A stretch of 64,000 nt of DNA, from IMG/VR virus record IMGVR_UViG_3300024269_000017. One strand, given 5' to 3'. Below are positions 46,312 to 59,891 of the stretch, one piece after another. Position 1 is the first letter of the stretch, and the number at the start of each line of letters is the position of its first letter. The notes beneath the pieces were generated by a model, which saw nothing but the letters and a program-made list of their open reading frames with translations, had not been told where the DNA came from and did not search any database. This DNA comes from a virus (lineage: Duplodnaviria; Heunggongvirae; Uroviricota; Caudoviricetes). Made by a program: the position numbers and the translations under genes.

Positions 46312-47919
46312 TTAATTAGCAGATTCCTTATTCTAAATAGTTTTTTCAGATTTCTGTCCATCTGGTTTTTCAGGACGACCGCCTTTATTTTCAGAGGAAG
46401 AACCTGTCTAAGAACTTTGAGCTTTCTTCTAAGCCTTCTATCCTAAGATGTCCTCACCATTCATTGTAGAACTCATAATCGGTGGGATCATAATTTCATA
46501 CAAGTGCAATACTTCATTTTCAAAGTGTGCAGTAGCAATAATAGCACTTTGAGAATGACCCATCGCAATCTGCGGTAGCATCTTGGAGTAACCAATCTGC
46601 ACTTGTTCCTTATACATCTTCGCAAGCTCGATGTAGTTGTAGACTGTCGTCTCCAACATATACACTCTAAAGTTATACTTCTTCTTACCGGGGAACTTGT
46701 GACGAACGATCTTGTTTAACATATTACCAAACTGTAGAATCAAATTGCGCATTGAAGCCTCATCATTTAAGATAGACTTTTCAAGAGCAATATTACCATC
46801 TGTATTAAACAAGTTCTAAGAAACACCAAATTGGTTATACAAAGTTCTTTCAACCTTTTCCAAATCATCGGTAGAGGTTGTAGTATTTTTATCCGCCAAG
46901 TCCGCAACAGAGGTATCCGCAAATGTAGTCATAACGTCTACACCAACCGCACGCTTCAACATCTGAACCGCATTGTTGTGAATATCTTTTGCTTCATCAA
47001 CGTCAAAAATCAAATCACCATTCTTATCAAGAGGAAGTTTCTGAATTACAATTTTCAACAATTTCTGCATGGTCTTGCGACGGTCTAAATCCTGCGCTGC
47101 ATCCAAATCCAAAATCGCGGGAATCGCATTTGCAAGAATTGGATAGTCACTACCATTCAGATTTAATTTAATCGCACAAGCGGGATCAAGTAAATACCAC
47201 CCAGCTTGAGAGCCAGATTCATCTTTAAGTTTGCCTTTCTTGTATAAAACATAACCTTTGGCAAACTCTTCTGGGAACATCTTTAAAATTCTAAGTCGCT
47301 GTTCAATAGTTGGGAACTTATCATCAAAGAACTTCATATTGAACTCAACGGCCGGCGAATCGCCAACCATATAACGACTGCGACAATAAGCAACTGGCAA
47401 TTCCTGCAAGGTCATGCCATTAGTGGTATCTACAATATAACCATAGTAGCAACCATTCTTAATAACCTAAAGGGCTACATTGCCGCACATGTATTTAATA
47501 TTTGAGTTATCTAAATAATTAAGAACCTTAGAAAACTCACTTAGAATTTTTTCTTCCTTGATAGAATCATCTTCAACATATGGAACAACATACCAGTCAT
47601 ATCTATACAAAAATGCAAAATATTTGCATAGACGTTCATAGATACCACTTACCTCATAGAAGTAATTTGATATTTCACGCAAGGTGTTATAATCCTTAGT
47701 AGCTAATGCGCGTAAAACCGCATTCTTGTCACCATATGTACGATTGGTCTTTTTTAAAGCACCCAAATCTAAAATAGCATCATCAAGGGTTTGTAGACCA
47801 ATACGAATCTTGCTAAAATCAAGTGGCTCATTATTTTCCGGATCAATATAATCAATATCCCTGCGAGGCGGAGTTAATGCAAAACCTTTAGCACGGATTT
47901 CATCCTATCTTCTTCGCAA
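46312..47919 (-). CDS. portal protein (~535 codons) with >=8 in-frame TAGs; TTG start
   Basis: fragments 46438-46812, 46816-47415, 47467-47766 share one frame; hand-stepped ends: TTG at 47917-19 after AAGGAGG RBS with TAG as codon 5; C-terminal TAGs at 46438, 46429, 46408, 46333; TAA at 46312-14. Confidence 0.55.
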
Positions 47920-47932
47920 CCGTCACACCTCC

Positions 47933-48289
47933 TTAATAGCCAGCCTTTGTCATAATATAATCATAAGTAATAAGATTCTCTTCTGTATACGGAATTTCAA
48001 CTAATGGGATTTCCTTTAATGCACAAAAACGACGTTTCTTGTTATCATTGAACTACTGTTGATAAAAACCTTTTGTTCCACCAAATTTACTTGATGGTTC
48101 ATAATGTTGTTTACCTTGATATTCAATAAGGAAATCAATATTTCCATCATCGTCAAATACACAAAAGTCAAACCGCAAAGGACGACCATTCGGGCTATTT
48201 AAACCCTCAAATGATTGTTCCATTGTGAACCGCAATCCCGCCTCTTCCAGAATCTCTTGAATCTTGATTTCTCCACGAGACGCTCTCAT
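47933..48289 (-). CDS. free-standing DUF559/Vsr-like endonuclease-domain protein (~118 aa), one in-frame TAG at 48053
   Basis: FDFxVFD...IEYQGKQH...EIPLVEIPY motif pattern of the DUF559 PD-(D/E)xK family; GGGAGG RBS; sits between terminase and portal, a typical homing-endonuclease position; paralogous to C-terminus of 53149-53925. Confidence 0.5.
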
Positions 48290-48301
48290 AATGGACCTCC
48301 C

Positions 48302-50044
48302 TTAGTTCATAAACATCATTTCAGAAATTCTGCCTTTGCGTTTACGCTTTTTACTATCTTCCTCTTGTTTAATATAGTACAAGCCATATTCAAAAGCAGA
48401 GAACTTATCTTTCTTAATTGACTTATTAGCTTGCTTTAAAATGATGTTAACACCTTCGTTTTCTTCACGAAGATTCATCATCTCTTCCTTCAATATGGAA
48501 GTTAGAGTAAACGGTTTAAGATATTCCGCCCTCTCTTCAGGTTTCATATCTTGTCCACGCTTAGTTCCCATTAACTTAACTTTTGCCACACGTTCATCAA
48601 TCAGCATCTTTACTTTACCAGAAGATAACTGAGTTTGCGCATTCGCGTGAGCTTCAGTGTTAATAGGTGCATTGGCCTTAATAATATACATAGCATCAAA
48701 CTCACAGGCATCAGTGCGGAACTTCTTATAATAATTTTCTTCATCGTTCTCAACACCAAAGTCAGGATAAGTTTCATTAGTATCCGGATCAATTTGAGTT
48801 TTTACCATATAGTCAACAAGACCAATACCAAGACCATTACCGTCGATAACAATACGACGAGCCTTGTATTTATAGAACAACTTCTTCAATGCAATAGCTT
48901 GATCTTCAAAGTGTTCATCATGTAAAGTATAAATATTTACCAAAGTCTTTAATGATACACCCGCAGTCTGTGGTGTTACCTTAAATACACAAACTACAGT
49001 ATCGCAACCTTTACGACCTACGTCAACCGCAAGTACATAATACGCAGACTTCATAGATCTACCAGAATACTCGTATTCAGGCTGCTTTAAGATTCTATTA
49101 CGATCAAATTGCTCAGCACGGAAGAACGCATCTTCAATAGTGCCAGACCATTTAGATTCATACTCACGGTCAAAAGAGGACTCATTAAATGTACCGTCCA
49201 ATTTCAAGTCGCGCACAAAGTTCTTATCAAGTAATTTCATAAGAACAGGAATTCTCCAAGTACCACCCATAATACAAAACTTCTCCGGTTGCGTAATCTG
49301 TCCAACAAGCATTTGAATCAACTTATCATAAGCGAAAGTATTCTTCCAGCCCGCAGTTGTAACAAAGATCTGACTTTTATTCAGAACCTCTTGATCATCA
49401 GAAGTACCATCCGGCAATCTGCGAGAAACGTTCATAACTGGAATAATAACTTCGTTTAGGATAGTTCCATCTACGCCAACGCACTCCTCAACAAGTCCGC
49501 CATGTCGGCGCTTACCTCTTGATTTTTCGCTAGCACCCAAGTTATCAATATAAGAACCACTTCGGAAAATATATTTACAATAGTCTTTACCTTCTAATGT
49601 TTTACCACGGCCCCAGTCAATCTCTTTTGCGAAGCCCGGCACAAGAGTACAGATTTCCTGGACTTTTTCTTTCAAAATACCAGAAGCCTGTTCCTTACCA
49701 CCAGAAGTAACAAATAGTTTAGATCCCGCATATAGTACTGCACGAGTCATCAAAATCAAAACCGCAAGGAATGATTTTGAATAAGCACGCGGAAAGACCG
49801 CATACACGTATTTGTAACGCATAGCGGCCCGCAAAAATACTCGTTGATAAAAGAATAAGTTAAGCGTTTCCTTTGGAGGATTTGGCTGCCATTTACCTGC
49901 CATGAAGTCAACAAACATGTCAGGGTATTCGCGCCAATAGGCAATATACTAACGTGCGACCGGAATAACGGCCCGCACACGCTCTTCAGATAAACCAATT
50001 TTCTATCGGTCGTTTGAGAGGTTTAATAAGTCTTGTAAAGCCAT
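48302..50044 (-). CDS. terL: terminase large subunit (~580 codons) with 2 in-frame TAGs near N-terminus
   Basis: ORF 48302-49918 extends upstream in frame through TAG at 50003 and one further TAG to ATG 50042-44 behind GGAGGA RBS; size and position typical of terminase large subunit. Confidence 0.6.
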
Positions 50045-50045
50045 A

Positions 50046-51218
50046 TTATTCCTCCTTTAACATTTCCATCATCGTTAAGGCATCATCTTCAGCCTCTTGT
50101 TCTAAGAATTCATAGTGTTCGGCAAAGTCATCATCTTTCAATTCATCAAGAGAATCCATATCCATAATTTCATCTTCATCATCAATATCTTCATCTTCTT
50201 CGCGTTCGGCTTCGCGCTGCAATGCCTTAACCGCAGATTCGATAAGATTACCAAGATTCATCTCTTCAGTAACAAGAGTGTTAGTGTAGCCACGCAAGTC
50301 CGCAAGAGTTTCATCAACTCTATCCTTCGGCTTGTCGGTATAGAAACGAGGAATAAATCCCTCTTCTTTTTCACATAATAAAACCAGTTCAGAAATTGAG
50401 TTAACAAACTCGCCAGCCTCAGCCTTATTCTGAACCGCAGTAAATTTAGCGGATTTCATCAAAGCGTCATAAACCTTAGACATCTTTTGGAAACCTTCGA
50501 TGTCGCCCAAGTCAATCAGTTGATGAGCCTTGATTGAAGTTTTACAAATAAGCTTTAAATAGTCTTCATGAGATGGAGTCTGAATATCGAACGATTGCAT
50601 CATCTCTTGATAATACTTCTCTAACTGAACCCATTCATACGGTTTGTAGGTCTTGCCCCACTTAATCGCCAAGTAAGTTTTATCTTCTTCAGTTAGATCA
50701 TCTTCGAATCCCACTGGCTCAAAGGCATCAATCGGAGCAGGCTCCTCTCGTGTTGCTTCTAGTTCAGCGGGTCTTTCAGGTGTCCTGTTTGCGGCGAGAG
50801 CTTCCTCAATCTCTTCTCCAGTATAGCCTTGTCGAGCCATAACGTCTCGCTTCCGCGCATCCATTTCAGCCTTAATCTTTTCAGTATCTTCCCATGAATA
50901 ATTTTTGTATTGATTCAATTTCATTTTGGAAAGGTAACGACCCAAGATGGTCATACCAGTAACCTTGGTGCGGTCCTTGCCATAACGTTCAAGTAGAGTA
51001 TTCCATTCCTCTTCAATATAAGGAACATTGATCTCTTCCAAAATCCATAAATAAGTTTTCGGATTCCAATTGTCTACATGTCGAGTGATGCATTTCTTAC
51101 ATTCAGGTAATTTACCATCGTCGGGGTATCTATCCAACCGATTAGATGTGTAAAATTGATCAGTATCCATCGTTCGACCGCAGACCTTACAATAATAAGT
51201 TTTATTTAAGTCTGCCAT
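50046..51218 (-). CDS. Zn-ribbon protein with acidic C-terminus, possible terminase small subunit (390 aa)
   Basis: ORF track; CxxC...CxxC near N-terminus; immediately upstream of large terminase. Confidence 0.35.
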   Translation of the reverse strand: MADLNKTYYCKVCGRTMDTDQFYTSNRLDRYPDDGKLPECKKCITRHVDNWNPKTYLWILEEINVPYIEEEWNTLLERYGKDRTKVTGMTILGRYLSKMKLNQYKNYSWEDTEKIKAEMDARKRDVMARQGYTGEEIEEALAANRTPERPAELEATREEPAPIDAFEPVGFEDDLTEEDKTYLAIKWGKTYKPYEWVQLEKYYQEMMQSFDIQTPSHEDYLKLICKTSIKAHQLIDLGDIEGFQKMSKVYDALMKSAKFTAVQNKAEAGEFVNSISELVLLCEKEEGFIPRFYTDKPKDRVDETLADLRGYTNTLVTEEMNLGNLIESAVKALQREAEREEDEDIDDEDEIMDMDSLDELKDDDFAEHYEFLEQEAEDDALTMMEMLKEE

Positions 51219-51223
51219 TCACA

Positions 51224-52290
51224 TTACTCCTTTGCCTTCTTGTTCTTGGCATTCCGGCAACACTTACACAAAGAATACCATCCATCTCTTGAACCTTTGT
51301 TTATGGAAAAAAATCTTGAATGGGCTAACTTAATTTGCCCACACCTAGTACATTTCTTCCACTTCCCATATTCTTTTTCAGTATAATACCAGGTCAGCCA
51401 TTCATCTGTATAATAAGAGGCAATGAGCTTTGGAATTTTATTACGCCATAACGAAGAAATATATTCGAGCGAATGAGTGAAGCCGAATTCCTTTTCAATC
51501 ATTTCCTTGATATCAACATTAGATTGCCCGTCAATTTTATATTCTACAATACGACGGTATAAAGGATAGCCGGCAAGTGAATTATCTACTAATCTATCAA
51601 AGTCTTCCATCATATACCAGGTATCACCCTCGAACCTGCCATAGCATCCTTCTTTTAGTTTAGAATAATTGCATAAAATAGTGCTAATAACAACGGGATT
51701 GATAAAGGACACACCTTCATACTGGATTTCTCCATTTTCATCTACCCATTCATCCCATGGGAGTTTAATATAGTGTCCGATATTTCTTGTAATATTTCGC
51801 GCAACAATTGGTTGGCGGTAGGCGTTTTTAATAAGATATTGATCCTTCCGCAATTCGATAATAGTTGATTTGATAATATAGGCTGCTCGCCCAGTCGCAG
51901 TTTTAGACAGCTTTTCCCAATATGCTATGCTGTCGCGCAACTGACGTAATGGCTCAATTTCTTCTAAATCTTTTTTCGTAATTGTTACTTTCGGCTAAAA
52001 TATTACATTCTTATCGTTCGTTACTAAATTATATATACCATCTTCGCCATTCTCCAACTGGCCAACAAGACCCTCGAAAGATGTTTCTCGTTTATTGACA
52101 GTCGCCATACGGTTGTCGGTGAGAATCTTTCGCTCCTTCTTCTCTTGTTTCTCCATACAAAGAACCAAATAATCAGCAAGGATTTCCAGATATTGCTCGC
52201 TTGGGTCGGGAGTCTCTGTTAAAATCTATTTCACCAATTCATTTCGCTCTTGAGGAGATTCAATCGTATAATCTAGCTTGATTATAATAA
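51224..52290 (-). CDS. ~355-codon protein with C-terminal CxxC...CxxC Zn-finger and 2 in-frame TAGs; first gene of late operon
   Basis: ORF 51224-51940 continues upstream in frame through two TAGs to AGGAGG RBS near 52295; exact start codon unclear (TTG or ATT). Confidence 0.4.
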
Positions 52291-52311
52291 TCAACCTCCT
52301 TCTATGCCTCT

Positions 52312-52340
52312 ATTATACCACAAAAATTTTCATGAGTCAA
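52312..52340 (-). promoter_or_regulatory. late-operon sigma70-type promoter (TTGACT-17-TATAAT), divergent from early promoter
   Basis: minus strand reads tacTTGACTcatgaaaatttttgtggTATAATagaggcatagaAGGAGG. Confidence 0.5.
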
Positions 52341-52358
52341 GTAAAAAAGATCGCCCAT

Positions 52359-52387
52359 TTGAAAATTTAAAAAAAATTTGATATAAT
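52359..52387 (+). promoter_or_regulatory. first plus-strand promoter (TTGAAA-17-TATAAT)
   Basis: catTTGAAAatttaaaaaaaatttgaTATAATgtat upstream of 52419 gene. Confidence 0.5.
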
Positions 52388-52418
52388 GTATATAGAAATG
52401 ATAAAGGAGATGACTTCA

Positions 52419-52751
52419 ATGGTACAGAAGATCATTAGTCTGATTTTAATTGTGGCAATTGCGGTCGGTCTATTGTTTGTTGCAATTGGAGCAACCAAAG
52501 GCACAAGTTATTACATCGTGGATAAGGGGTACGCATTGAGCTATATCGATGAATATGCATTTGTACACGATGATGTATTCTGGTTTGTGTTGGGTGACCA
52601 GAGTGGCAAGATGGAGAGCATTACTGTATTTGTGAGTCCAAATTCTTGGTACCGCTATTCTGTAGGTGAGCGATACGGCGGACCAATTGAGAATTTTATT
52701 ACTTATGAAGGTGATGACAGCATTGCTCGTCACTTGGATGGGGTACACTGA
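52419..52751 (+). CDS. small membrane-anchored protein (~110 aa)
   Basis: AAAGGAGATGACTTCA-ATG; N-terminal hydrophobic helix; TGA stop overlapping next ATG. Confidence 0.5.
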   Translation: MVQKIISLILIVAIAVGLLFVAIGATKGTSYYIVDKGYALSYIDEYAFVHDDVFWFVLGDQSGKMESITVFVSPNSWYRYSVGERYGGPIENFITYEGDDSIARHLDGVH

Positions 52752-53149
52752 TGTTCATCCTTAACTCCGTCGGTAGCACGATTCTGCGCGCAGAAGAAAA
52801 ATTTATGCGAGAGGTTGCACCGACGATGGGACTAGAAAATCCCTTTAAGCGTAAACATAAAGTACTAGCGAGTATGTTTAAAGAGGTAAATACTGGCCAG
52901 TACAAAAGAGTCCCAGATGAAAAATTAGATTGGAGCGACTATCCTACAGAAGAAGAGTGCGCGCATTGGGAAAGAGAAAAAAACCACTATGTGGCGAAGC
53001 AAGTATTGCTTCGCCATGGATGGGTGGAACTACAGAAATTTGCGGAAAGCCGACATGTGGAAGAAGTGTTGAAAAGTTTACTGCCCTGTGAAGCAGAGAG
53101 TGGTCAATGTCACATGGATTGTTATATGAGAGGAGAATGTCATCTATAA
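52751..53149 (+). CDS. hypothetical protein (132 aa)
   Basis: ORF track; ATG overlaps previous TGA (TGATG). Confidence 0.5.
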   Translation: MFILNSVGSTILRAEEKFMREVAPTMGLENPFKRKHKVLASMFKEVNTGQYKRVPDEKLDWSDYPTEEECAHWEREKNHYVAKQVLLRHGWVELQKFAESRHVEEVLKSLLPCEAESGQCHMDCYMRGECHL

Positions 53150-53925
53150 TGAAATGGCAAGAAATGATTGGTCAAACTTTTAAGACATTAACTGTTATTC
53201 GGCGTCCTTCTAAAGAAGAGACACCTTGGAAGAGTCATTCGACACCACTGCTATGTAAATGCAATCAATGCGGCAAGGAAGCTATTTTGCGGAAAGAAGA
53301 TGTTGAAAAGGGTTGTGTTGATTGCAGAATCGCCGCAGGAGAAATTTCAGGTGGTAGAGGTCATCAAGCCTTAAAAATGGGAGATAGGTTTGGTAAATTA
53401 ACAGTGATTGAATATGATTTACCTTATAAAACCGCGGGTGGAAGATATACTTCTTATGTTAAATGTCAATGTGATTGCGGCAATGTGGTTTCAGTGCGAA
53501 AAGACCATTTAACTGGATATAAGCGCGGTAGCGATAGAGATGGATATAAATATACTGTATCGTGTGGCTGTTCTCAAGTATCTGCTGGTGAACTATACGT
53601 GCGGACAATGCTGCAAGATCTTGATGTAATATTTGAAGAGCAATATTCCATTGAAGAGCTGTCTACAGGTTTAAAGTTTGATTTTGCGGTTTTTGATTCA
53701 AATAGACAGTTATCTTATTTAATTGAATATGATGGAGAGCAGCATTTTAAGGCTGTTGAAGCATGGGGCGGAGAAGAAAAATTACAAATTCAAAAAGAGC
53801 GGGATGAGCGCAAGAACGTATACTGTAAAGAGCAAGGGATCCCTTTAATTAGAATTCCCTATACCGTTAAACTTTCCAATCTCACTTTTGATGATATATC
53901 TCCGTCTTCCAGATTTCAAATTTGA
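53149..53925 (+). CDS. Cys-rich Zn-ribbon repeats fused to C-terminal DUF559/Vsr-like endonuclease domain (~258 aa)
   Basis: GAGGAG RBS before ATG 53149; two CxCxxCG...CxxC repeats; C-terminus FDFAVFD...IEYDGEQH...ERDERKNVYCKEQGIPLIRIPY matches DUF559-like pattern. Confidence 0.5.
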   Translation: MKWQEMIGQTFKTLTVIRRPSKEETPWKSHSTPLLCKCNQCGKEAILRKEDVEKGCVDCRIAAGEISGGRGHQALKMGDRFGKLTVIEYDLPYKTAGGRYTSYVKCQCDCGNVVSVRKDHLTGYKRGSDRDGYKYTVSCGCSQVSAGELYVRTMLQDLDVIFEEQYSIEELSTGLKFDFAVFDSNRQLSYLIEYDGEQHFKAVEAWGGEEKLQIQKERDERKNVYCKEQGIPLIRIPYTVKLSNLTFDDISPSSRFQI

Positions 53926-54201
53926 TTTAGTGGGAATTGTGACCAGGTATAACCCCTTTTCTCTTTCAAAATAATTTTTTTCCCGAAAGGGTGCCCGGAG
54001 GGTGAATGTTGAATGGATTTACATACCAGAAAAAAATACAAGAGTACTGCCAGCATCTGGAACGCTCGTCGGGGCGTGCATGGTCGGCACGCCCCGAGTT
54101 TGCGCAATAAACCTGTCATGCAACAAAAGCGTCGCGAATGCATTGAATGCATCATGTTAAGTGTTATCCTAAAACTTAATAAAAAAAATTGTAAAAACCT
54201 A

Positions 54202-54230
54202 TTGACAAACGCGGTCAGTTGTAGTATACT
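54202..54230 (+). promoter_or_regulatory. early promoter P1 (TTGACA-17-TATACT)
   Basis: cctaTTGACAaac-N-TATACTataat with A-rich upstream tract. Confidence 0.6.
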
Positions 54231-54281
54231 ATAATCACAGCAAGGGACAAGAGCCCAGCTGAAAGAAAGGAAGTAACTACA

Positions 54282-54560
54282 ATGATGACTGCTGAAATGC
54301 TGATGACCATGCTGGAAACCCTCGAACAGGCTGGCGATGTTGAAATCCGTCGCGAATCCGACACTGAAATCTGTGTGGATTTCATCGACTTCATCGGCTT
54401 CGATGATGACTGGTGTGAGCAGTTCCGTGACTATACCATGCCTGAGCTGGTTGAGCAGGTGCAGGACATCATCGACGAGCTGGGCACTGGTGACTTCTAC
54501 CATGAAGTGGTGCTTGATGGTGTGGGCTTCATGTTCGGTTGTACCTCTTACGACATCTAA
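54282..54560 (+). CDS. very acidic small protein (92 aa, ~25 D/E), DNA-mimic candidate
   Basis: conserved leader aaaggaagtaactaca-ATG; TAA stop. Confidence 0.6.
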   Translation: MMTAEMLMTMLETLEQAGDVEIRRESDTEICVDFIDFIGFDDDWCEQFRDYTMPELVEQVQDIIDELGTGDFYHEVVLDGVGFMFGCTSYDI

Positions 54561-54641
54561 GAGGTCACCGAGCACGGGCCTAGCTAGCCAACAAACAAGA
54601 GACACAACAAATAATTAACAAAAATAATCTGTATAAACCTA

Positions 54642-54670
54642 TTGACAAACATCCTGAAACCTGCTATAAT
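54642..54670 (+). promoter_or_regulatory. early promoter P2
   Basis: TTGACAaac-17-TATAAT. Confidence 0.6.
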
Positions 54671-54708
54671 AGGTAGTGTCAAGGGAACAACGAAAGGAGA
54701 TCAAAGCA

Positions 54709-55017
54709 ATGTTTATCCTCATGAAGTATTCGAAGGTAGAAAGTACTCGCACTCGCACCGCCGCACACAGAGTAGGTCTGTTCCGCACTCGCAAAGGTGC
54801 AAACAGAGTGATGGCAAGGCTTCTGGAAGCAGAAAAAAAGAAGCCTGTACCTGCCACTTTCAAGGTGGAACATGAGTGCTATTACAGTACCCGCGCATTC
54901 TGGGATGCTGTTGCACAGATGTACTGGGGTTGGCAGGATCGCCGCTATGCCAAACTGTTGGCGAAGTTCGACCGCATCCAGCAGAAGCTCGAAGCCATGA
55001 GGAGGGCAAGAGGATGA
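54709..55017 (+). CDS. hypothetical basic protein (102 aa)
   Basis: AAAGGAGATCAAAGCA-ATG; TGA stop. Confidence 0.55.
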   Translation: MFILMKYSKVESTRTRTAAHRVGLFRTRKGANRVMARLLEAEKKKPVPATFKVEHECYYSTRAFWDAVAQMYWGWQDRRYAKLLAKFDRIQQKLEAMRRARG

Positions 55018-55136
55018 ACAGCGCAAGGTTTAAGAAGCTCGTCAAGAGGAAAGAAAAGCAAGTCTATGCACAGAGGAGGGAAGAGCGATCTTCCCCCTCG
55101 AAAAAAAAGATAAAAAAGTTTGCGGAAAAGGCTTGA
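55014..55136 (+). CDS. possible 40-aa Lys/Arg-rich peptide
   Basis: ATGA overlap with upstream stop; very basic; no own RBS; weak. Confidence 0.25.
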   Translation: MNSARFKKLVKRKEKQVYAQRREERSSPSKKKIKKFAEKA

Positions 55137-55161
55137 CAAATACCCTAAGACGTGCTATACT
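55133..55161 (+). promoter_or_regulatory. early promoter P3
   Basis: gcTTGACAaa-17-TATACT then gtgtcgaaagggacaag. Confidence 0.6.
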
Positions 55162-55202
55162 AATAGTGTCGAAAGGGACAAGACAAAACACAGAAAGAGG
55201 TA

Positions 55203-55646
55203 ATGAGAATGAAGATCTGGTTCGATATGGATGGTACGATTGCTGACCTGTATGCGGTTGATGGATGGCTTCAGATGCTCCGAGCTTACGACCCTGCACC
55301 CTACGCAATGGCAAAGCCCATGCACCACATGGCAACGCTGGCAAGGATGCTCAACAGGGCACAGGCACAGGGACACGAACTCTGCATCATCAGCTGGTGT
55401 AGCAAGGAAAGCACTCTTGCCTATGATGAAGCAGTCCGAGCCGCCAAGCTCGCATGGCTCGCCAAGCATCTGCCTTCTGTTCATTGGGATGTGGTGGAGA
55501 TCGTTCCCTATGGGCAGAACAAGTGGGACACCTGCAAGAGCGGCATTCTCTTCGATGATGAAGAGCGCAACCGCAACGCATGGGAACAGGGCAAGGCGTT
55601 CACTCCCGAAACTATCTTCGCCACTCTCTCTGCACTCACTCGCTGA
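55203..55646 (+). CDS. HAD-superfamily 5'(3')-deoxyribonucleotidase-like protein (147 aa)
   Basis: N-terminal KIWFDMDGTIADL DxD motif and later ILFDDE motif typical of NT5C-type nucleotidases; AAAGAGGTAATGAGA-ATG. Confidence 0.55.
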   Translation: MRMKIWFDMDGTIADLYAVDGWLQMLRAYDPAPYAMAKPMHHMATLARMLNRAQAQGHELCIISWCSKESTLAYDEAVRAAKLAWLAKHLPSVHWDVVEIVPYGQNKWDTCKSGILFDDEERNRNAWEQGKAFTPETIFATLSALTR

Positions 55647-55675
55647 GTGCAGAGAGCAACAAGAAAGAGAGGTAA

Positions 55676-55915
55676 ATGACTATGGGATTCAGTTATAATA
55701 GTTATAATAGTGATAACTCTGGATGCGCGACTGTGATTGCGGCGCTGATTGTGCTGGCGCTGGTCATCTTCGCTGGGCCATGGGTTGTGCAGATGGGATA
55801 CAATGCAGTAAAGCTGGACTTCAACCTGCCTGACCTGAACTACTGGCAGTTCTTCTGGGCTACCAATGCATTGCAGGTTATCTTCAAGACCAATGTTTCC
55901 AGTAAGAGCAAGTGA
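55676..55915 (+). CDS. small membrane protein (79 aa)
   Basis: AGAGGTAAATGACT RBS; hydrophobic core; co-transcribed with 55203 gene. Confidence 0.5.
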   Translation: MTMGFSYNSYNSDNSGCATVIAALIVLALVIFAGPWVVQMGYNAVKLDFNLPDLNYWQFFWATNALQVIFKTNVSSKSK

Positions 55916-55925
55916 TAAATGAAAT

Positions 55926-55960
55926 GCAGGATGACTCCACACATCCTGCATTTCTTTTCC
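55926..55960 (+). terminator. rho-independent terminator
   Basis: GCAGGATGactccacaCATCCTGC followed by TTTCTTTTCC. Confidence 0.6.
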
Positions 55961-56400
55961 CTCTGGCCGGCTGGTGCACGGGCGCCAAGTCTGTGCACCA
56001 GCCGTATTCCCGCACGCATAGGCCATGCATAATTATTCATCGACAATGCATAAACATACAAAAACAAGCCCCATCCCAAAACAGAGCCACTCTCGTCTTC
56101 GCTTGCGCGGGCGGAATTTCACCGCCGTGGATGTATGGGGTGGAGTGATCGCGTAGGCTAGGGGGACGATTTGAACGTCTCTTCTACTTGCGTAGCGTGC
56201 TAACCGAGCTGACACTACCCGTTCGCCGCGATCTGGAAGCTCTTGATACCTGCGAGAGTTTTGCCACCGAGTAATCGCGAATCCTCAGTGCCCGTAGTGG
56301 TTGTGCTTCCCTCAACCTCTGATAGTATTATACTACAAGAGGGATCAAATGTCAATACCTTTTTGCAGAAAAAGAAAAAAAAGTTTTTTTCAAAAACCTA

Positions 56401-56429
56401 TTGACATTCCTGCCCACCTATGCTATAAT
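56401..56429 (+). promoter_or_regulatory. early promoter P4
   Basis: aaaaagtttttttcaaaaacctaTTGACAttcc-N-TATAAT. Confidence 0.6.
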
Positions 56430-56486
56430 AGTCTCAGTTGGTGAGGGAAACACCGACAAGACAAAATGACAAAGGTGGTAATCACA

Positions 56487-57056
56487 ATGAATGCACTGGA
56501 ACTGATGGATCTCTACTACGACCGCATGTGCGCTTGCACTTCCACTTCTGGACGCAACAACAACTTCAAAAAGATGCTTGCTCTGTGGGAAGAAAATGAA
56601 GTTGTTCGTGCGGTTTGGACTTTTGTCAAGGATGCCTATTTCATCGTTGATCGGTTTGTCAAGGGCGTTGTTGACAAGGTAAAGTCTTTCTTTAAGCCGA
56701 CCGCAAACGTGGTTTACTCCTGCGACAAGGTAGAGGGCAATCAGCTTGTGTATCTCCTGCGGCTGCTTAATGAAGAGGGCAATCTGGTTTGGTCAAAGGT
56801 CGGCACGACCACCCGAACCATTGAAGAACGCATGAGCGAACACCTGCGCTACTATCGCAAGTATGGTATCAAAACGATCGAAGTTACTAAAGTTTGGGAT
56901 TGCGGAGAAGTTGACGCAGAAGGTTTGGAAAGTTTCCTGCGTTCCAAGTACATCCGCAAGCATCCGAACACTTTCCAGAAAAATGATCGTTTCTATCAAG
57001 TTGAGTTTGATCTGGAACAGGCTGAAAAGTGGGTTGACTTCTATCTGAACGATTGA
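56487..57056 (+). CDS. T5orf172 / GIY-YIG-like domain protein (~190 aa)
   Basis: LVYLLRLL...WSKVGTTTRTIEERMSEH...DAEGLESFLRSKY pattern resembles T5orf172 domain; GGTGG RBS 8 nt before ATG 56487 (an upstream ATG at 56466 is also in frame). Confidence 0.5.
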   Translation: MNALELMDLYYDRMCACTSTSGRNNNFKKMLALWEENEVVRAVWTFVKDAYFIVDRFVKGVVDKVKSFFKPTANVVYSCDKVEGNQLVYLLRLLNEEGNLVWSKVGTTTRTIEERMSEHLRYYRKYGIKTIEVTKVWDCGEVDAEGLESFLRSKYIRKHPNTFQKNDRFYQVEFDLEQAEKWVDFYLND

Positions 57057-57087
57057 AAAAAAAGTTTGTCAAGGGCGTAAAAACCCC

Positions 57088-57116
57088 TTGACAAACAGCC
57101 CAAGATGCTGTATAAT
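57088..57116 (+). promoter_or_regulatory. early promoter P5
   Basis: ccccTTGACAaacagcccaagatgctgTATAAT; spacer nearly identical to P11 and P15. Confidence 0.6.
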
Positions 57117-57141
57117 AGTTAATGTAAAGGAGGTCAAGAAC

Positions 57142-57546
57142 ATGGCTAAGGAACTTCAGTATCCTACCCCTGAGTGGTTGGACGCCATGGTCGATAAGAC
57201 TGGTTGCTCACTGGAAGAAGCCGAAATGGCATGGTGGGACAAGCAGATCGACAAGGGCAACCCTACCCCATGGGACTTGCCACCCGAGCAAGAGAAGGAA
57301 GCACGCAAGGCGAACCGACCCAAGGCTCACAAGGTGGTTGACCCTGCAGGCAAGACCCGAACCCGAGAACGCAAGCCCAACGAGGACAAGCGACTATTGG
57401 TGGACTGCCTGCACGACGCATTGAAGGACTTTGACAACTGCGAGGTTGTCAACCCCGAGCGTCAAGTGGACTTTGTGCTGAACGGCGTTTCCTATTCGGT
57501 TACGCTGACCGCCCACCGACCCCCCAAGGACAAGGGGAAGGGCTGA
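57142..57546 (+). CDS. hypothetical protein (134 aa)
   Basis: AAAGGAGGTCAAGAAC-ATG; TGA stop. Confidence 0.55.
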   Translation: MAKELQYPTPEWLDAMVDKTGCSLEEAEMAWWDKQIDKGNPTPWDLPPEQEKEARKANRPKAHKVVDPAGKTRTRERKPNEDKRLLVDCLHDALKDFDNCEVVNPERQVDFVLNGVSYSVTLTAHRPPKDKGKG

Positions 57547-57597
57547 TACCCTTCCCCAAGCCCCGAAAAAAAACTTGAAAAAAGTTTCAAAAAGGGC

Positions 57598-57626
57598 TTG
57601 ACAAACCGACCGACCTGTGGTATACT
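57598..57626 (+). promoter_or_regulatory. early promoter P6
   Basis: gcTTGACAaaccgaccgacctgtggTATACT with A-tract UP element. Confidence 0.6.
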
Positions 57627-57697
57627 TAAGATGTTCCAAGGGAAGGAACAAAACAAAACGACAGCGCCAAGAGCGCGGAAAGAAAGAGGTAATCGCT

Positions 57698-58066
57698 ATG
57701 ACTACTATCAATGTGAAGAATGAGAAGCTGACCTACGTGACCGCCCTGACCTACGCCATTGAGAACGGCAACCTGCCCACCGAGATCGCGGAAAAGCTGA
57801 TTGCCCTGCGTACTCAGCAGGAGAAGCGTAACAGCGGTGAGAAGAAGCCGACCAAGGTTCAGGAAGCCAACGTTGGCATCAAGCAGGTTATCCTGACTGC
57901 CCTTGAGGGTCAGGAAGCCAAGACCGTAAGCGAGATTCAGACCCTTGCTCCCGAGCTGGGCGAGCTGAGCAATCAGAAGGTTGCAAGCCTTGTCCGTCAG
58001 CTTGTGGAAGAGGGCAAGCTGACCCGAATCGAGGAGAAGCGCAAGGCGTATTTCCGCCTTGCCTGA
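57698..58066 (+). CDS. winged-helix DNA-binding protein, paralog 1 (122 aa)
   Basis: AGAGGTAATCGCT-ATG; C-terminal SNQKVASLVRQLVEEGKLTRIEEKRKAYF shared with 61254 and 63165 genes. Confidence 0.6.
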   Translation: MTTINVKNEKLTYVTALTYAIENGNLPTEIAEKLIALRTQQEKRNSGEKKPTKVQEANVGIKQVILTALEGQEAKTVSEIQTLAPELGELSNQKVASLVRQLVEEGKLTRIEEKRKAYFRLA

Positions 58067-58113
58067 CCCTCGCGGGGTGGTGAAAAAAACTTTCACCACC
58101 CCGAAAAAACCCC

Positions 58114-58142
58114 TTGACAACCTGCCTATCCTGTGCTATAAT
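58114..58142 (+). promoter_or_regulatory. early promoter P7
   Basis: ccccTTGACAacctgcctatcctgtgcTATAAT. Confidence 0.6.
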
Positions 58143-58187
58143 AGTATCAACGAAAGGGCAAGAGCCCGAACAACGAGGAGGATCCCC

Positions 58188-58445
58188 ATGAAGAACACCA
58201 TCGCTGCCACCCTGATCGCCAACTACGGTTTCGAAGCCCAGTCCAACTGCCTGTTCACTGGCAAGGGCTCTTGGCTGGCCTCTCACGAGACCGTCAAGGT
58301 CACCTTCCACGGTGACATGGTCACCATCGACCACTACCGCTTCTTCTGGGATGGCGGTGATGTGGAGTGGGAACGCTCCACGGTGGTCACCTGCCACCTC
58401 TCCCGACTGTGGGAGAACCTCCCCGAGTGGGTGCTCAGAGCCTGA
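58188..58445 (+). CDS. hypothetical protein (85 aa)
   Basis: GAGGAGGATCCCC-ATG; TGA stop. Confidence 0.55.
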   Translation: MKNTIAATLIANYGFEAQSNCLFTGKGSWLASHETVKVTFHGDMVTIDHYRFFWDGGDVEWERSTVVTCHLSRLWENLPEWVLRA

Positions 58446-58461
58446 GCCCCACTCTTTTTTT
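58425..58461 (+). terminator. rho-independent terminator
   Basis: GAGTGGG...CCCACTC stem with TTTTTTT; followed by a second GC hairpin. Confidence 0.5.
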
Positions 58462-58563
58462 ATTCGCCGGCGCGTGGGCGGGCGCTGCGCTTGCCCACTC
58501 GCCGAATTTCCGCGAGGAGCACCAGCCAGCAAAAAATAATTTGAAAAACTTGCAAAAAAGGTA

Positions 58564-58592
58564 TTGACAAATCATCCCGAATCTGCTATAAT
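58564..58592 (+). promoter_or_regulatory. early promoter P8
   Basis: gtaTTGACAaatcatcccgaatctgcTATAAT; near-identical to P18. Confidence 0.6.
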
Positions 58593-58642
58593 TAAACCAT
58601 CGAAAGGGAACACAGAGTCCCAACAGAAAGGAAGTTACTACT

Positions 58643-58894
58643 ATGATGACTGCCAAAGAAGCTAAGACCATGACCACCAACTACCTGACCGCCGAAGCTG
58701 ACAAGCACCTGCAGAAGATTGAAGACACCATTCAGATCTATGCCAGCAAGGGCAACACCTCCATGTATTACAGCAATGGTCTCAGCGGTGCCGACCCTCG
58801 CATCCAGTCCAAGGTATACAACACTATGGTTGAAGCAGGTTACAAGGTTCGTTGGTGTGAATCCAGCCTGCACATCAGCTGGGCAGATGCCTAA
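58643..58894 (+). CDS. hypothetical protein (83 aa)
   Basis: ORF track; aaaggaagttactact-ATG leader; TAA stop. Confidence 0.6.
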   Translation: MMTAKEAKTMTTNYLTAEADKHLQKIEDTIQIYASKGNTSMYYSNGLSGADPRIQSKVYNTMVEAGYKVRWCESSLHISWADA

Positions 58895-58913
58895 AAAAAG
58901 TTGCTCAGAGGGG

Positions 58914-58942
58914 TTGACAAATCCCTCTGAGCATGGTATAAT
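58914..58942 (+). promoter_or_regulatory. early promoter P9 with inverted repeat flanking -35
   Basis: GCTCAGAGGGG-TTGACAA-ATCCCCTCTGAGC then catgg-TATAAT. Confidence 0.6.
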
Positions 58943-58979
58943 AAGTACATCAAAAGGAACAAGAAAGGAAGTAACTACA

Positions 58980-59318
58980 ATGACTAAGAAGATTTCTCTG
59001 AATGACTGGACCTACATCGGCAAGTACAATCCTGCGGCCAAGTGGCTTCGTCCCCTCTGCTCCTACTCTCTGACCGAAGCTGGTGCCTATTCTGCAGATG
59101 GCAACCCCGACTATCGCCGCGATTGCAAGATTAGCTGGCCTGTGTATCTGCTCCTGTTCCTGCCTGTGCATCTACTTCAGTTGCTGGTGTGCCTGTGGGA
59201 TGGCGGCTTGAAAGAATTTGAAATTGCAAGTCGCCACATTGGGCATGATTACATCACTGCACATGGCGACAACAGCGGACGCTATCAGATGGCAAAAGAA
59301 ATTTGGGAAAAGGCTTGA
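58980..59318 (+). CDS. protein with C-terminal transmembrane segment (112 aa)
   Basis: aaaggaagtaactaca-ATG; WPVYLLLFLPVHLLQLLVCLW hydrophobic stretch; its TGA lies inside the -35 of P10. Confidence 0.55.
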   Translation: MTKKISLNDWTYIGKYNPAAKWLRPLCSYSLTEAGAYSADGNPDYRRDCKISWPVYLLLFLPVHLLQLLVCLWDGGLKEFEIASRHIGHDYITAHGDNSGRYQMAKEIWEKA

Positions 59319-59343
59319 CAAAGCCTTTCCCCTGTGGTATAAT
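59315..59343 (+). promoter_or_regulatory. early promoter P10
   Basis: gcTTGACAaagcctttcccctgtggTATAAT. Confidence 0.55.
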
Positions 59344-59371
59344 AAATGTATCAAATGAAGGAGTGATAAAC

Positions 59372-59856: not shown

Positions 59857-59891
59857 CAGCCCTTTGCAAGAAAAAAATTTTCAAAAAGGTA

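What the first reader, a model, noticed from the sequence alone, without database searches (positions are those of the whole stretch)
52300..54300. Abrupt composition and codon-usage switch between late (~33-36% GC) and early (~50-58% GC) halves
Left of ~52.3 kb, genes use AT-rich codons and TAA stops. Right of ~54.2 kb, they use GC-rich codons (CTG, GCC, ACC) and TGA stops. The transition spans two intermediate-GC genes (52419-53925). A jump this large inside one phage genome is unusual. It could mean a mosaic junction joining modules from phages of different hosts, strong selection of early genes toward a higher-GC host codon usage, or a chimeric contig.
Basis: seen in the sequence. Interest (0 to 1): 0.7.

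Follow-up and report, generated by a model that had tools for sequence, protein, structure and literature searches.

The report
Genetic-code boundary in a gut phage
The GC jump is real: it separates a phage's AT-rich late genes, which read the TAG stop codon as an amino acid, from a 12-kb GC-rich block of standard-code early genes, nearly every one behind a consensus or near-consensus host-type promoter. Dual-coded phages of this kind are already known, but I found no report of this sharp codon split.

Summary
The composition step is real. GC is 0.360 left of about 54.0 kb and 0.488 to the right, and GC3 is 0.24 against 0.63 while GC2 is identical. It is not an assembly artefact: contigs from at least three other samples span it at 99.9-100% identity, and 14 related lineages and the published phage phAss-1 show the same layout.

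The minus-strand late operon (504-52156) is TAG-recoded. Reading TAG as sense merges 64 broken ORFs into 29 genes, raises coding density from 83% to 97%, and reveals 103 in-frame TAGs that most often align to Gln.

The GC-rich part is not a "half" of the genome. It is a roughly 12-kb island (54.0 to about 65.95 kb) of about 20 small standard-code genes with TGA stops. It carries 15 perfect and about 9 near-perfect TTGACA-N17-TATAAT promoters.

Best reading: this is the border between a module transcribed by the host polymerase and translated by the naive host, and a late module that depends on a phage-altered translation system. The cause of the GC3 split is inferred, not shown. Candidates are host-matched codon selection, a GC-rich pool of exchangeable early cassettes, or both.

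This is a new member of a known kind (code-15 phages of the phAss-1/EF1-related family).

The parts
504..52156 (-). Late (virion/packaging) operon, AT-rich and TAG-recoded: 28 genes, GC3 0.24, 103 in-frame TAG, true stops TAA 25 / TGA 3 / TAG 0
   Evidence: With TAG read as sense, 64 ORFs become 29, coding density rises from 0.834 to 0.970 and mean length from 226 to 581 aa. Control reassignments of TGA or TAA give no gain. SPbeta-type Pfam labels (YonG, YonD, YonB, YomV, YomU_Tube, YomW, YomO) appear on identical contigs.
24880..36255 (-). 3791-aa tape-measure-like gene with 42 in-frame TAG codons
   Evidence: One frame is open from 36255 to 24880 with no TAA or TGA. A fragment of it hits PF10145 PhageMin_Tail. 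It aligns to the Enterococcus phage H1 tail protein across 18 TAG positions.
18766..24759 (-). 1997-aa tail-region gene with 18 in-frame TAG
39803..40549 (-). YomV-like 248-aa gene with the highest TAG density in the window (11 TAG, 44 per 1000 codons)
46312..47919 (-). 535-aa gene next to the terminase (portal-sized; function not verified) with 7 in-frame TAG
   Evidence: It aligns over its whole length to standard-code relatives (56% to L001, 32% to H1) across the TAG positions.
48302..50044 (-). Large terminase (TerL), 580 aa, with in-frame TAG at 50003-50005 and 49949-49951
   Evidence: Identity is 48% to the annotated terminases of Geobacillus virus E3 and Enterococcus phages and 45% to phAss-1. 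It reaches 74% over all 580 aa to L001, but only when TAG is read through.
51224..52156 (-). Sigma-factor-like 310-aa gene, the first gene of the leftward arm, with one in-frame TAG at 51995-51997
   Evidence: It matches phrog_5767 'sigma factor'. The conserved N-terminal 72 aa are recovered only by reading through TAG (61% identity to L001 over residues 1-307).
42431..46296 (-). TAG-free late genes with raised GC3 (0.37-0.43) and CAG fraction 0.54-1.0. Presumed abundant capsid-region proteins (YonB, YonD labels). The tail tube gene at 38845-39777 shows the same pattern.
   Evidence: 'Abundant' is an inference from position and Pfam labels.
52157..52418 (.). Divergent control region (GC 0.32) with near-consensus sigma-A-type promoters facing both ways: 52340-52312 on the minus strand and 52359-52387 on the plus strand
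   Evidence: Collinear nucleotide homology with relatives stops here.
52419..53149 (+). Two small rightward ORFs (110 and 132 aa) with intermediate GC3 (about 0.4), no TAG and no family match
53107..53925 (+). HNH/DUF2726 homing-endonuclease-like gene, GC3 0.27, lying just left of the GC step
   Evidence: It matches phrog_559 (HNH endonuclease) and phrog_9084 (homing endonuclease) and PF10881. The content of this stretch differs in relatives.
53981..54235 (.). The GC change point, between the end of the endonuclease gene and the first island promoter (54202-54230)
54202..64000 (+). GC-rich early block: about 20 small standard-code genes, GC3 0.63, stops TGA 17 / TAA 3 / TAG 0. It continues beyond the window to about 65,950.
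   Evidence: Homologues lie in the same position in relatives.
54642..63928 (+). Array of 15 perfect TTGACA-N17-TATAAT promoters, most with an extended -10 TG. Starts: 54642, 56401, 57088, 58114, 58564, 58914, 59315, 59892, 60435, 61668, 62406, 62939, 63091, 63694, 63900. About 9 more on the plus strand match 10-11 of 12.
   Evidence: The window holds 18 perfect sites against 0.06 expected. The same dense array occurs in the early block of relatives.
55203..55646 (+). Early gene with a 5'-deoxynucleotidase (NT5C) domain. Homologues are present in every family lineage examined.
   Evidence: PF06941. Homologues have GC3 0.25-0.45 in low-GC relatives, 0.63 here and 0.74 in phAss-1.
56466..57056 (+). 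Early gene with a T5orf172 domain
   Evidence: PF10544
61741..62397 (+). 218-aa early gene conserved across the family (annotated 'exodeoxyribonuclease' in Enterococcus phage H1)
   Evidence: phrog_20187. Identity is 36% to Enterococcus phages and 27% to phAss-1. GC3 is 0.69 here, 0.28 in H1 and 0.72 in phAss-1.

Best explanation
The window is part of a roughly 168-kb siphovirus genome of the phAss-1 / Enterococcus EF1 / Geobacillus E3-related family, which has an SPbeta-type virion module. The phage runs two expression regimes, and the GC step at about 54.0-54.2 kb is the border between them.

Shown:
- Rightward, a roughly 12-kb block of about 20 small genes is written in the standard code. 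It has GC-rich codons (GC3 0.63) and TGA or TAA stops. Almost every gene sits behind a perfect or near-perfect sigma-A consensus promoter.
- Leftward, more than 52 kb of virion and packaging genes are AT-rich (GC3 0.24), end in TAA and contain 103 in-frame TAG codons. These must be read as an amino acid, most likely Gln.

Inferred:
- The right block is an immediate-early module that the host RNA polymerase and the unmodified host translation system can express on entry.
- The late genes become translatable only after a phage suppressor tRNA(CUA), encoded elsewhere in the genome, is made. That tRNA was not found in the window or its 10-kb flanks.
- The GC3 split arises because early genes are kept on codons the naive host reads well. 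They avoid A-ending codons and TAG. Most late genes drift to AT-rich codons served by a phage tRNA array.
- Exchange of early cassettes within a GC-rich pool probably adds to this.
For: Reality of the junction. Identical or 99.9% identical contigs from other samples span it.

Code switch.
- Coding density goes from 0.834 to 0.970 only with TAG read as sense.
- TAG positions align to Gln in 6 of 12 cases against 55-76%-identical standard-code relatives, and in 10 of 43 non-gap positions against phage H1.
- None of the 51 genes ends in TAG.

Early-module nature.
- There are 15 perfect promoters on the coding strand, against 0.06 expected for the whole window.
- The same arrays occur in the homologous block of relatives.
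- The block holds NT5C and T5orf172 domain proteins and small ORFans.

Synonymous nature of the shift.
- GC2 is 0.364 in both sets.
- GC3 (0.63) is well above island non-coding GC (0.44), and late GC3 (0.24) is below late non-coding GC (0.33).
- G-ending NCG and GGG codons stay rare while C-ending codons, CTG, AAG and CAG rise.

Shared direction with abundant late genes. TAG-free capsid and tube genes also drop A-ending codons. Across bulk late / TAG-free late / island the values are: 4-fold A 0.31 / 0.14 / 0.13, AAG 0.31 / 0.82 / 0.78, CAG 0.20 / 0.84 / 0.87, TTA 0.51 / 0.09 / 0.01.

Heritable architecture.
- phAss-1 shows the same tiers: late GC3 0.32 with 15.4 TAG per 1000 codons, middle 0.46 with 3.5, early 0.64 with about 0.
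- In IMG/VR, 14 TAG-recoded lineages have a median early-minus-late GC of +0.098, against +0.020 in 6 standard-code lineages (p = 0.006, not phylogeny-corrected).
- The same early gene families sit at GC3 0.25-0.41 in uniform-GC relatives.

Suppressor tRNA in the family. phAss-1 carries three tRNA(CUA). Three TAG-recoded family contigs in IMG/VR carry one inside tRNA arrays.
Against: - No tRNA of any kind is present in the window or in the 10 kb on either side, so the decoding agent in this phage is inferred.
- The host is unknown, so 'host-matched' codons are untested.
- Non-coding DNA in the island is also GC-elevated (intergenic 0.44 against 0.33; promoter spacers 0.50 against 0.29-0.38 in relatives). 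Codon selection alone does not explain that.
- The island replaces T-ending with C-ending codons and uses CTG and GTG, whereas the TAG-free abundant late genes keep T-ending codons. RSCU correlation between the island and those genes is only 0.24.
- The link to recoding is not strict. L138/L139 are recoded without a GC-rich early block, and standard-code L178 has +0.07.
- Enterocloster phage PMBT24 is 32% GC throughout, although its host is about 49% GC (from my memory). A higher-GC host therefore does not force a GC-rich early block.
- phAss-1's 36 tRNAs read both A-ending and G/C-ending codons.
Confidence: 0.6

Rival explanations
1. Mosaic origin. The early block, or the cassettes in it, was imported by recombination from phages adapted to a higher-GC host. 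The GC step is then a recombination scar and the composition has simply not yet decayed.
For: - The early block is patchy and reshuffled between relatives, while the late arm is collinear up to about 52.4 kb.
- A variant island from another sample is 84-97% identical in segments with gaps between them.
- A single GC-rich early gene sits in a 30%-GC background in goat-colon contig L034 and is 85% identical in nucleotides to the gene in L014.
- Non-coding spacers in the island are GC-rich too.
- The promoter-flanked monocistronic layout resembles the mobile promoter cassettes of T4-type hyperplastic regions (Arbiol et al. 2010, from memory).
Against: - The same early gene families occur in the same position and order in low-GC relatives.
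- GC-rich early plus AT-rich late is maintained in at least 9 separate lineages and in phAss-1 at 45% TerL identity. This is a standing state, not a recent event.
- GC2 is unchanged and GC1 rises only 0.05, while GC3 rises 0.39.
- No uniformly high-GC donor phage was found among 233-291 family members in IMG/VR.
Confidence: 0.25
2. A region-specific DNA- or RNA-level cause rather than translation. Examples are selection for GC-rich DNA in the segment expressed or entering first (escaping AT-targeting silencing or nucleases, insulating strong promoters from spurious AT-rich promoter-like sites, stabilising mRNA), or a local mutational bias.
For: - Promoter spacers (GC 0.50) and intergenic DNA (0.44) in the island are more GC-rich than in the late arm (0.33) and in relatives (0.29-0.38).
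- The block coincides exactly with one rightward transcription block and ends where the strand switches.
Against: - GC3 (0.63) far exceeds non-coding GC (0.44).
- G-ending NCG and GGG codons are not enriched.
- In phAss-1 the early coding GC3 is 0.64 but promoter spacers remain AT-rich (0.29). This points to a coding-level cause.
Confidence: 0.1
3. Assembly chimera joining two unrelated genomes.
For: One JGI assembly (3300024272) breaks at window 55551-55677, 1.5 kb inside the island, with a 127-bp overlap between two contigs.
Against: - Three other assemblies from other samples span the junction at 99.9-100% identity.
- A 167,964-bp contig carries the late genes.
- Both sides have homologues in the same cultured phages.
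- Relatives share the layout.
Confidence: 0.01
4. A prophage-host junction, with the GC-rich side being bacterial chromosome.
For: A rise in GC marks the edges of recoded prophages in Borges et al..
Against: - The island genes are small phage ORFans homologous to early genes of the Enterococcus phage H1, an isolate with a known host.
- GC falls again after 12 kb and phage genes continue.
- No bacterial genome held this locus. The only hit was one phage-like MAG contig.
Confidence: 0.01

Closest known systems
phAss-1 and the proposed Phassvirus-related group (Babkin et al. 2023, PMC10607447; NCBI 'Caudoviricetes code 15 clade')
   Same: - The virion module is the same: TerL is 45% identical, and most late proteins have homologues.
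- Both have a tape measure longer than 3000 aa.
- Both use TAG for Gln in virion genes.
- Both have an early block of small genes behind many consensus promoters.
- By my measurement, both show the same three-tier GC3 and TAG pattern.
   Different: - This phage is a distant relative, with no nucleotide match in the phage collection. It comes from herbivore or goat-type gut samples, a habitat inferred only from the goat-colon title of related contig L034.
- Its genome is about 168 kb, against 136 kb for phAss-1.
- In phAss-1 roughly half the genome is at 45-55% GC. Here the GC-rich part seen so far is a 12-kb island.
- The phAss-1 paper reports only whole-genome GC.
Stop-codon-recoded gut phages with standard-code early genes and recoded late/lysis genes (Borges et al. 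2022, preprint 10.1101/2021.08.26.457843; block-wise dual coding, Mgcod preprint 10.1101/2022.06.29.495998)
   Same: - Recoded codons are concentrated in structural genes, and early genes are compatible with the standard code.
- The phage is low in GC overall.
- TAA is the preferred true stop in the recoded part.
   Different: - Those papers treat GC as a whole-genome property that precedes recoding. I found no statement in them about a GC-rich standard-code early block.
- Here the suppressor tRNA and any release-factor genes are unseen.
Host-takeover / pre-early modules of large virulent phages (Bacillus phage SPO1 host-takeover module; T5 pre-early region) - from my own knowledge
   Same: - It is a compact cluster of about 20 small genes of mostly unknown function.
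- Each gene, or pair of genes, has a very strong host-sigma promoter and a strong ribosome-binding site.
- It includes a 5'-deoxynucleotidase-like protein (T5 has the pre-early deoxynucleotidase Dmp) and a T5orf172 domain.
   Different: - No sequence homology to SPO1 or T5 early genes was detected beyond the domain hits.
- Location in a terminal repeat, and any host shut-off activity, are untested.
- Those modules are not known to me to differ in GC from the rest of their genomes.
Early-versus-late codon-usage differences and phage tRNAs serving late genes (e.g. Mioduser et al. 2017, PMC5683454; the T4 literature)
   Same: Early genes are closer to what the unmodified host can translate, and late genes are enriched in codons that phage tRNAs can read.
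   Different: - The magnitude is much larger: GC3 0.24 against 0.63 inside one genome, with TTA falling from 48% to 2% of Leu codons.
- The split coincides with a change of genetic code.

Membership tests
TAG-recoded (code 15, TAG=Gln) phage | In-frame TAG codons in conserved phage genes, such that full-length genes appear only when TAG is read as sense | tested here: met
   There are 103 in-frame TAG codons. ORF count falls from 64 to 29 and coding density rises from 0.834 to 0.970. TGA-sense and TAA-sense controls give no gain. Homologues align across the TAG positions.
TAG-recoded (code 15, TAG=Gln) phage | TAG corresponds to glutamine in standard-code homologues | tested here: met
   Gln is the commonest partner: 6 of 12 against 55-76%-identical relatives and 10 of 43 non-gap positions against phage H1. 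Background Gln frequency is about 4% (my estimate). The sample is small and other residues also occur.
TAG-recoded (code 15, TAG=Gln) phage | TAG is not used as a terminator | tested here: met
   None of 51 genes ends in TAG under the recoded reading (TAA 29, TGA 22).
TAG-recoded (code 15, TAG=Gln) phage | Phage-encoded suppressor tRNA with anticodon CUA | not testable with these tools
   No tRNA is present in the window or in the 10-kb flanks. The rest of the roughly 168-kb genome could not be fetched. tRNA(CUA) is present in phAss-1 and in three recoded family contigs.
TAG-recoded (code 15, TAG=Gln) phage | Recoding concentrated in late/structural genes, with early genes standard-code compatible | tested here: met
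   All 103 TAG codons lie in the leftward late arm. There are none in the 23 rightward genes, nor in the 7.5 kb beyond the island.
phAss-1 / EF1 / E3-related siphovirus family (SPbeta-type virion module) | Homologous terminase and virion gene set in conserved order | tested here: met
   TerL is 45-48% identical to phAss-1, E3, EF1 and H1. YonG/YonD/YonB/YomV/YomU/YomW/YomO labels appear in order. Homologues of most late proteins are found in H1 and phAss-1.
phAss-1 / EF1 / E3-related siphovirus family (SPbeta-type virion module) | A divergent early block of small genes next to the terminase end of the late arm | tested here: met
   The same layout occurs in H1 (H1_82-104) and in IMG/VR relatives, with shared gene families and promoter arrays.
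Assembly chimera | The junction is not reproducible in independent assemblies or related genomes | tested here: not met
   The junction is reproduced at 99.9-100% identity in contigs from at least three other samples. The architecture is shared by relatives. Read-level coverage was not testable.
SPO1-type host-takeover / T5-type pre-early module | A cluster of small early genes with strong host-sigma promoters | tested here: met
   There are 15 perfect and about 9 near-perfect promoters for about 20 genes in 9.8 kb.
SPO1-type host-takeover / T5-type pre-early module | Expression first after infection, host shut-off activity, and location in a terminal repeat or first-injected end | not testable with these tools
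   No expression data, genome termini or functional data are available.

The most novel reading that the evidence does not exclude
In this phage family the switch of genetic code comes with a switch of codon dialect. Immediate-early genes are held on codons and stop signals that the uninfected, higher-GC host reads best. They are G/C-ending, avoid A-ending codons, use TGA/TAA and contain no TAG. Late genes are written for a phage-remodelled translation system, with a tRNA array that includes tRNA(CUA). The GC3 split would then be an adaptive, heritable part of the code-switch timing mechanism, and it would predict recoding status across the family.
Probability: 0.35. Interest if true: 0.65.

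Novelty: new member of a known kind. Interest (0 to 1): 0.5.

Why it matters
Practical consequences:
- Standard-code gene callers shatter the late half of this genome. The JGI gene calls on identical contigs are fragmented, whereas the ENA calls are not.
- Composition-based tools for host prediction, binning or chimera detection would split or mis-assign such genomes, because one phage carries two codon dialects.

Biological consequences:
- The window gives a clean natural example in which promoter type, genetic code, stop-codon choice and synonymous codon usage all change at one point.
- Because related lineages with and without recoding, and with and without the GC-rich early block, are available, one question becomes testable. 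Does code switching co-evolve with adaptation of early genes to the naive host translation apparatus?

Tried and rejected
1. Nucleotide search of the phage collection with window 50-58 kb found no match.
2. PHROG, Pfam and PDB sequence searches gave little.
   - Most island proteins have no family.
   - This Pfam copy lacks the SPbeta virion families.
   - The putative capsid and tube proteins have no PDB relatives.
3. The hunt for the suppressor tRNA of this phage failed.
   - There is none in the window, the flanks or 160 relative loci.
   - Walking along the genome is blocked, because the look-up of encoding contigs accepts only window proteins.
   - The single metagenome scan returned only a 2.4-kb contig.
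   - One homologue search gave relatives whose next 10 kb hold no tRNA.
   - H1 proteins near its tRNA array are not conserved enough to serve as anchors.
   - A 14-base family-specific pattern returned mostly chance matches.
4. Host identification failed. The one genome-collection scan found only a phage-like goat-colon MAG contig labelled 'Bacterium'.
5. My first phAss-1 per-bin analysis with two-strand greedy ORFs was noisy. A strand-restricted analysis replaced it.
6. I rejected the idea that phage tRNAs read only A-ending codons. The phAss-1 set is nearly complete and reads both classes.
7. I rejected the idea that abundant late genes use the same dialect as the island. The RSCU correlation is only 0.24. 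What they share is avoidance of A-ending codons, not the swap of T-ending for C-ending codons.
8. An Rfam scan of the window found nothing.


Full report
**Observation**

A 1-kb composition profile shows 31-44% GC from 1 to 54 kb and 46-52% from 54 to 64 kb. A 300-bp profile places the rise between about 53.9 and 54.3 kb. A likelihood change-point search puts the break at 53,981 for the whole window (log-likelihood gain 293) and at 54,235 locally. GC is 0.360 to the left and 0.488 to the right, and no 1-kb bin overlaps between the two sides. All long ORFs left of 52.2 kb are on the minus strand. To the right, small ORFs with strong ribosome-binding sites run on the plus strand. The right side is somewhat less GC-rich than stated, and there are three transition ORFs rather than two.

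**What the window is**

The terminase (48302-50044) is 45-48% identical to the terminases of Geobacillus virus E3, Enterococcus phages EF1, H1 and VRE9, and phage phAss-1. A 218-aa protein from the GC-rich side (61741-62397) has homologues in the same Enterococcus phages and in phAss-1. Both sides therefore belong to one phage lineage. Precomputed Pfam labels on identical public contigs name the virion genes as SPbeta-type: YonG, YonD, YonB, YomV, YomU tube, YomW and YomO. A 167,964-bp contig carries the 2437-aa tail-region protein, so the genome is about 168 kb.

**Not a chimera**

- ENA ERZ27247467 k141_665625 is 100.000% identical to window 49060-61940.
- ENA ERZ27248457 k141_453581 covers 34887 to 64000 and 8 kb beyond at 99.9%.
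- Two JGI 3300024272 contigs are 100% identical.
- Proteins from either side are on record in 31-40 blocks of the collection.

Read-level coverage could not be examined.

**The GC-rich part is an island, not a half**

Identical contigs that continue past the window show that the last GC-rich rightward gene ends at window-equivalent 65,950. Three minus-strand genes follow (GC3 0.24-0.45), and then a FolD-containing rightward set (GC3 0.20-0.53) with regional GC of 33-45%. Ten kb to the left of the window the late genes continue at 30-41% GC.

Under the standard code the left region breaks into 64 ORFs covering 83% of the DNA, and 43 of them end in TAG even though GC3 is only 0.25. If TAG is read as sense, the region becomes 29 genes covering 97.0%, with mean length rising from 226 to 581 aa. 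Examples are a 3791-aa tape-measure-like gene with 42 in-frame TAG and a 1997-aa gene with 18. Treating TGA or TAA as sense gives no improvement, and the right side is unaffected.

The merged proteins align end to end with homologues. TAG positions pair with Gln more than with any other residue: 6 of 12 against 55-76%-identical standard-code relatives, and 10 of 43 non-gap positions against Enterococcus phage H1. ENA gene calls on the 99.9%-identical contig already show the long genes, whereas the JGI calls are fragmented. True stops in the late arm are TAA 25, TGA 3, TAG 0.

phAss-1 and its relatives were described as TAG=Gln phages with tRNA(CUA) genes (PMC10607447). The general pattern of recoded late genes and standard-code early genes is described in Borges et al..

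**Anatomy of the island**

It contains about 20 genes of 57-218 aa. Stops are TGA 17, TAA 3, TAG 0, and GC3 ranges from 0.42 to 0.77.

There are 15 perfect TTGACA-N17-TATAAT sites on the coding strand between 54642 and 63928, most with an extended -10 TG, plus about nine at 10-11 of 12. For the window as a whole there are 18 perfect sites against 0.06 expected. That is roughly one consensus host-type promoter per gene.

Recognisable domains are NT5C 5'-deoxynucleotidase (55203-55646), T5orf172 (56466-57056) and an AbrB/MazE-type fold (60488-60766). The rest match nothing. Three genes are paralogues: 57617-58066, 61254-61607 and 63165-63572.

Between the divergent promoter region (52157-52418) and the island lie two small ORFs of intermediate GC3 and an HNH/DUF2726 homing-endonuclease-like gene with GC3 0.27.

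**Nature of the compositional shift**

GC2 is identical in the two gene sets (0.364). GC1 differs by 0.05 and GC3 by 0.39, so the proteins are of similar make-up and the difference is in synonymous choice.

| Codon (share of its amino acid) | Late | Island |
|---|---|---|
| Leu TTA | 0.48 | 0.02 |
| Leu CTG | 0.02 | 0.54 |
| Lys AAG | 0.37 | 0.75 |
| Gln CAA / CAG / TAG | 0.63 / 0.22 / 0.15 | 0.15 / 0.85 / 0 |

The shift is not a plain GC push, because ACG, GCG, GGG and CGG stay rare while C-ending codons rise. Island GC3 (0.63) is well above island non-coding GC (0.44), and late GC3 (0.24) is below late non-coding GC (0.33). Even so, island non-coding DNA and promoter spacers (0.50) are more GC-rich than their counterparts in relatives (0.29-0.38).

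Within the late arm, the TAG-free genes of the capsid region and the tail tube have GC3 0.37-0.43. Like the island, they avoid A-ending codons. Across bulk late / TAG-free late / island, 4-fold A is 0.31 / 0.14 / 0.13, AAG is 0.31 / 0.82 / 0.78 and CAG is 0.20 / 0.84 / 0.87. But they keep T-ending codons where the island uses C-ending ones. There thus seem to be two components. One is avoidance of A-ending codons, shared by early genes and presumably abundant late genes. The other is an extra GC rise confined to the island.

**Comparative evidence**

- *Uniform-GC relatives.* In IMG/VR relatives with a 57%-identical sigma-like protein, the homologous early block lies in the same place and carries 14-17 perfect promoters and homologues of several island genes. 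It is uniformly 31-38% GC. These relatives use the standard code, at 1-3 TAG per 1000 codons.
- *Enterococcus phage H1.* It has the same layout, but its early block is GC-poorer than the rest of the genome.
- *phAss-1.* It shows the same tiers as the window: late block GC3 0.32 with 15.4 TAG per 1000 codons, middle 0.46 with 3.5, early block 0.64 with none needed. The phAss-1 paper gives only a whole-genome GC value.
- *TerL-centred survey.* In 42 IMG/VR loci, grouped into 20 lineages once the window is added, all eight of the highest TerL matches among the surveyed loci (74-93% identity) are TAG-recoded. Their early blocks are 9-14 GC points above their late blocks. The median excess is +0.098 in 14 recoded lineages and +0.020 in 6 standard-code lineages (Mann-Whitney p = 0.006). 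This is not corrected for phylogeny and has exceptions both ways.
- *Mosaicism.* Nucleotide alignments to the closest relatives are collinear through the late arm up to about 52.4 kb and then become short, reshuffled patches. An island variant from another sample is a mosaic of 84-97% identical segments.

The early block is therefore a mosaic cassette array that stays GC-rich whatever its gene content.

**Mechanism**

*Shown:*
- the code difference;
- the promoter array;
- the synonymous nature of the shift;
- reproducibility of the junction;
- conservation of the architecture.

*Inferred:*
- The island is the immediate-early module read by host RNA polymerase and by the unmodified host translation system.
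- Late genes, including the terminase and a sigma-factor-like protein that carry TAG near their 5' ends, become fully translatable only once a phage tRNA(CUA) is made.
- The codon split reflects the two translation environments.

The suppressor tRNA was not found in the window or its flanks. It exists in phAss-1 and in three recoded family contigs.

*Weaknesses:*
- The host is unknown.
- GC is also elevated in non-coding island DNA.
- The link to recoding is imperfect.
- Enterocloster phage PMBT24 is uniformly 32% GC, although its host is about 49% GC by my recollection. Babkin et al. list this accession, OQ326496, under the name PMBT10.

Import of early cassettes from a GC-rich pool is the main rival and may act together with selection.

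**Comparison with what is known, and novelty**

TAG recoding in late genes of gut phages, block-wise dual coding, and this very family are published. Early-versus-late codon differences and phage tRNAs serving late genes are also established ideas. This is therefore a new member of a known kind.

I found no report of a sharply GC-rich, consensus-promoter-dense, standard-code early block as a recurrent companion of recoding in this family. That covers the papers I could search. It is a modest but testable addition.

**Verdict**

The decisive feature, a genetic-code boundary, was missed. Interest is 0.5.

Noticed in passing
window 504-12152 (-): The four large distal genes (2437 aa with an LRR_5 hit, 548, 451 and 405 aa) are AT-rich (GC3 0.19-0.31) yet contain no in-frame TAG. 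The genes just upstream of them are TAG-rich. This could reflect recent exchange of host-recognition genes with standard-code phages.
   Followed up: no
window 56327-56355 (-), 60836-60864 (-): Two perfect TTGACA-N17-TATAAT sites lie on the strand opposite to the early genes inside the island. They could drive antisense transcripts or small unannotated leftward genes.
   Followed up: no
window 36903-36931 (-): This is the only perfect consensus promoter in the late arm. It lies just upstream of the TAG-free 174-aa YomO-like gene (36345-36869), which has a CAG fraction of 0.75.
   Followed up: no
window 54013-63572 (+): TGA ends 17 of 20 island genes, more than I would expect for about 49% GC (my own expectation, not computed here). 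Several stops overlap the next start (GTGA at 55912-55915, ATGA at 59542-59545). The reason is unexplained. It could be host preference, or reliance on RF2 in a TAG-suppressing cell.
   Followed up: partly
window 51995-51997, 49949-50005 (-): The sigma-factor-like gene and the terminase carry their TAG codons within the first 54 and 32 codons. The sigma-like gene is preceded by a near-consensus host-type promoter (52340-52312). Full-length product would then depend on suppression even if the gene is transcribed early, which is a possible timing device.
   Followed up: partly
window 55551-55677; loci L019/L021: In JGI sample 3300024272 the assembly breaks inside the island, with two contigs overlapping by 127 bp, although other assemblies run through. 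This region lies next to repeated promoter and leader sequences.
   Followed up: partly
window 57617-58066, 61254-61607, 63165-63572 (+); leaders near 55077-55174 and 63068-63161: There is a three-member paralogous early gene family, with a weak winged-helix hit. Upstream leader and promoter segments are repeated at about 80% identity within the island.
   Followed up: partly
L197 158-446, L210 2404-2752, L247 3100-3399: tRNA arrays of TAG-recoded phage contigs carry a tmRNA gene next to the tRNA(CUA). L197 and L210 come from contigs shown to belong to this family; L247's family membership was not checked.
   Followed up: no
L034 (JAFQOI010000013.1, 'Bacterium isolate RGIG2002', goat colon): A MAG labelled only 'Bacterium' contains a 43.9-kb contig of this phage family. 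It is probably a phage contig binned as a bacterial genome. One early gene in it is GC-rich in a 30%-GC background.
   Followed up: partly
L020 versus L021 (same DNA, window 34887-56296): ENA gene calls give long recoded genes, whereas JGI calls on DNA 99.9% identical to it (L021 matches the window exactly) give many fragments. This shows directly how standard-code annotation breaks this phage.
   Followed up: yes
L432 9612-12107 (Enterocloster phage PMBT24): A gene annotated 'RNA-dependent RNA polymerase' lies just upstream of the terminase region. It may be a YonO-like phage RNA polymerase rather than an RdRp. No counterpart was looked for in the window.
   Followed up: no
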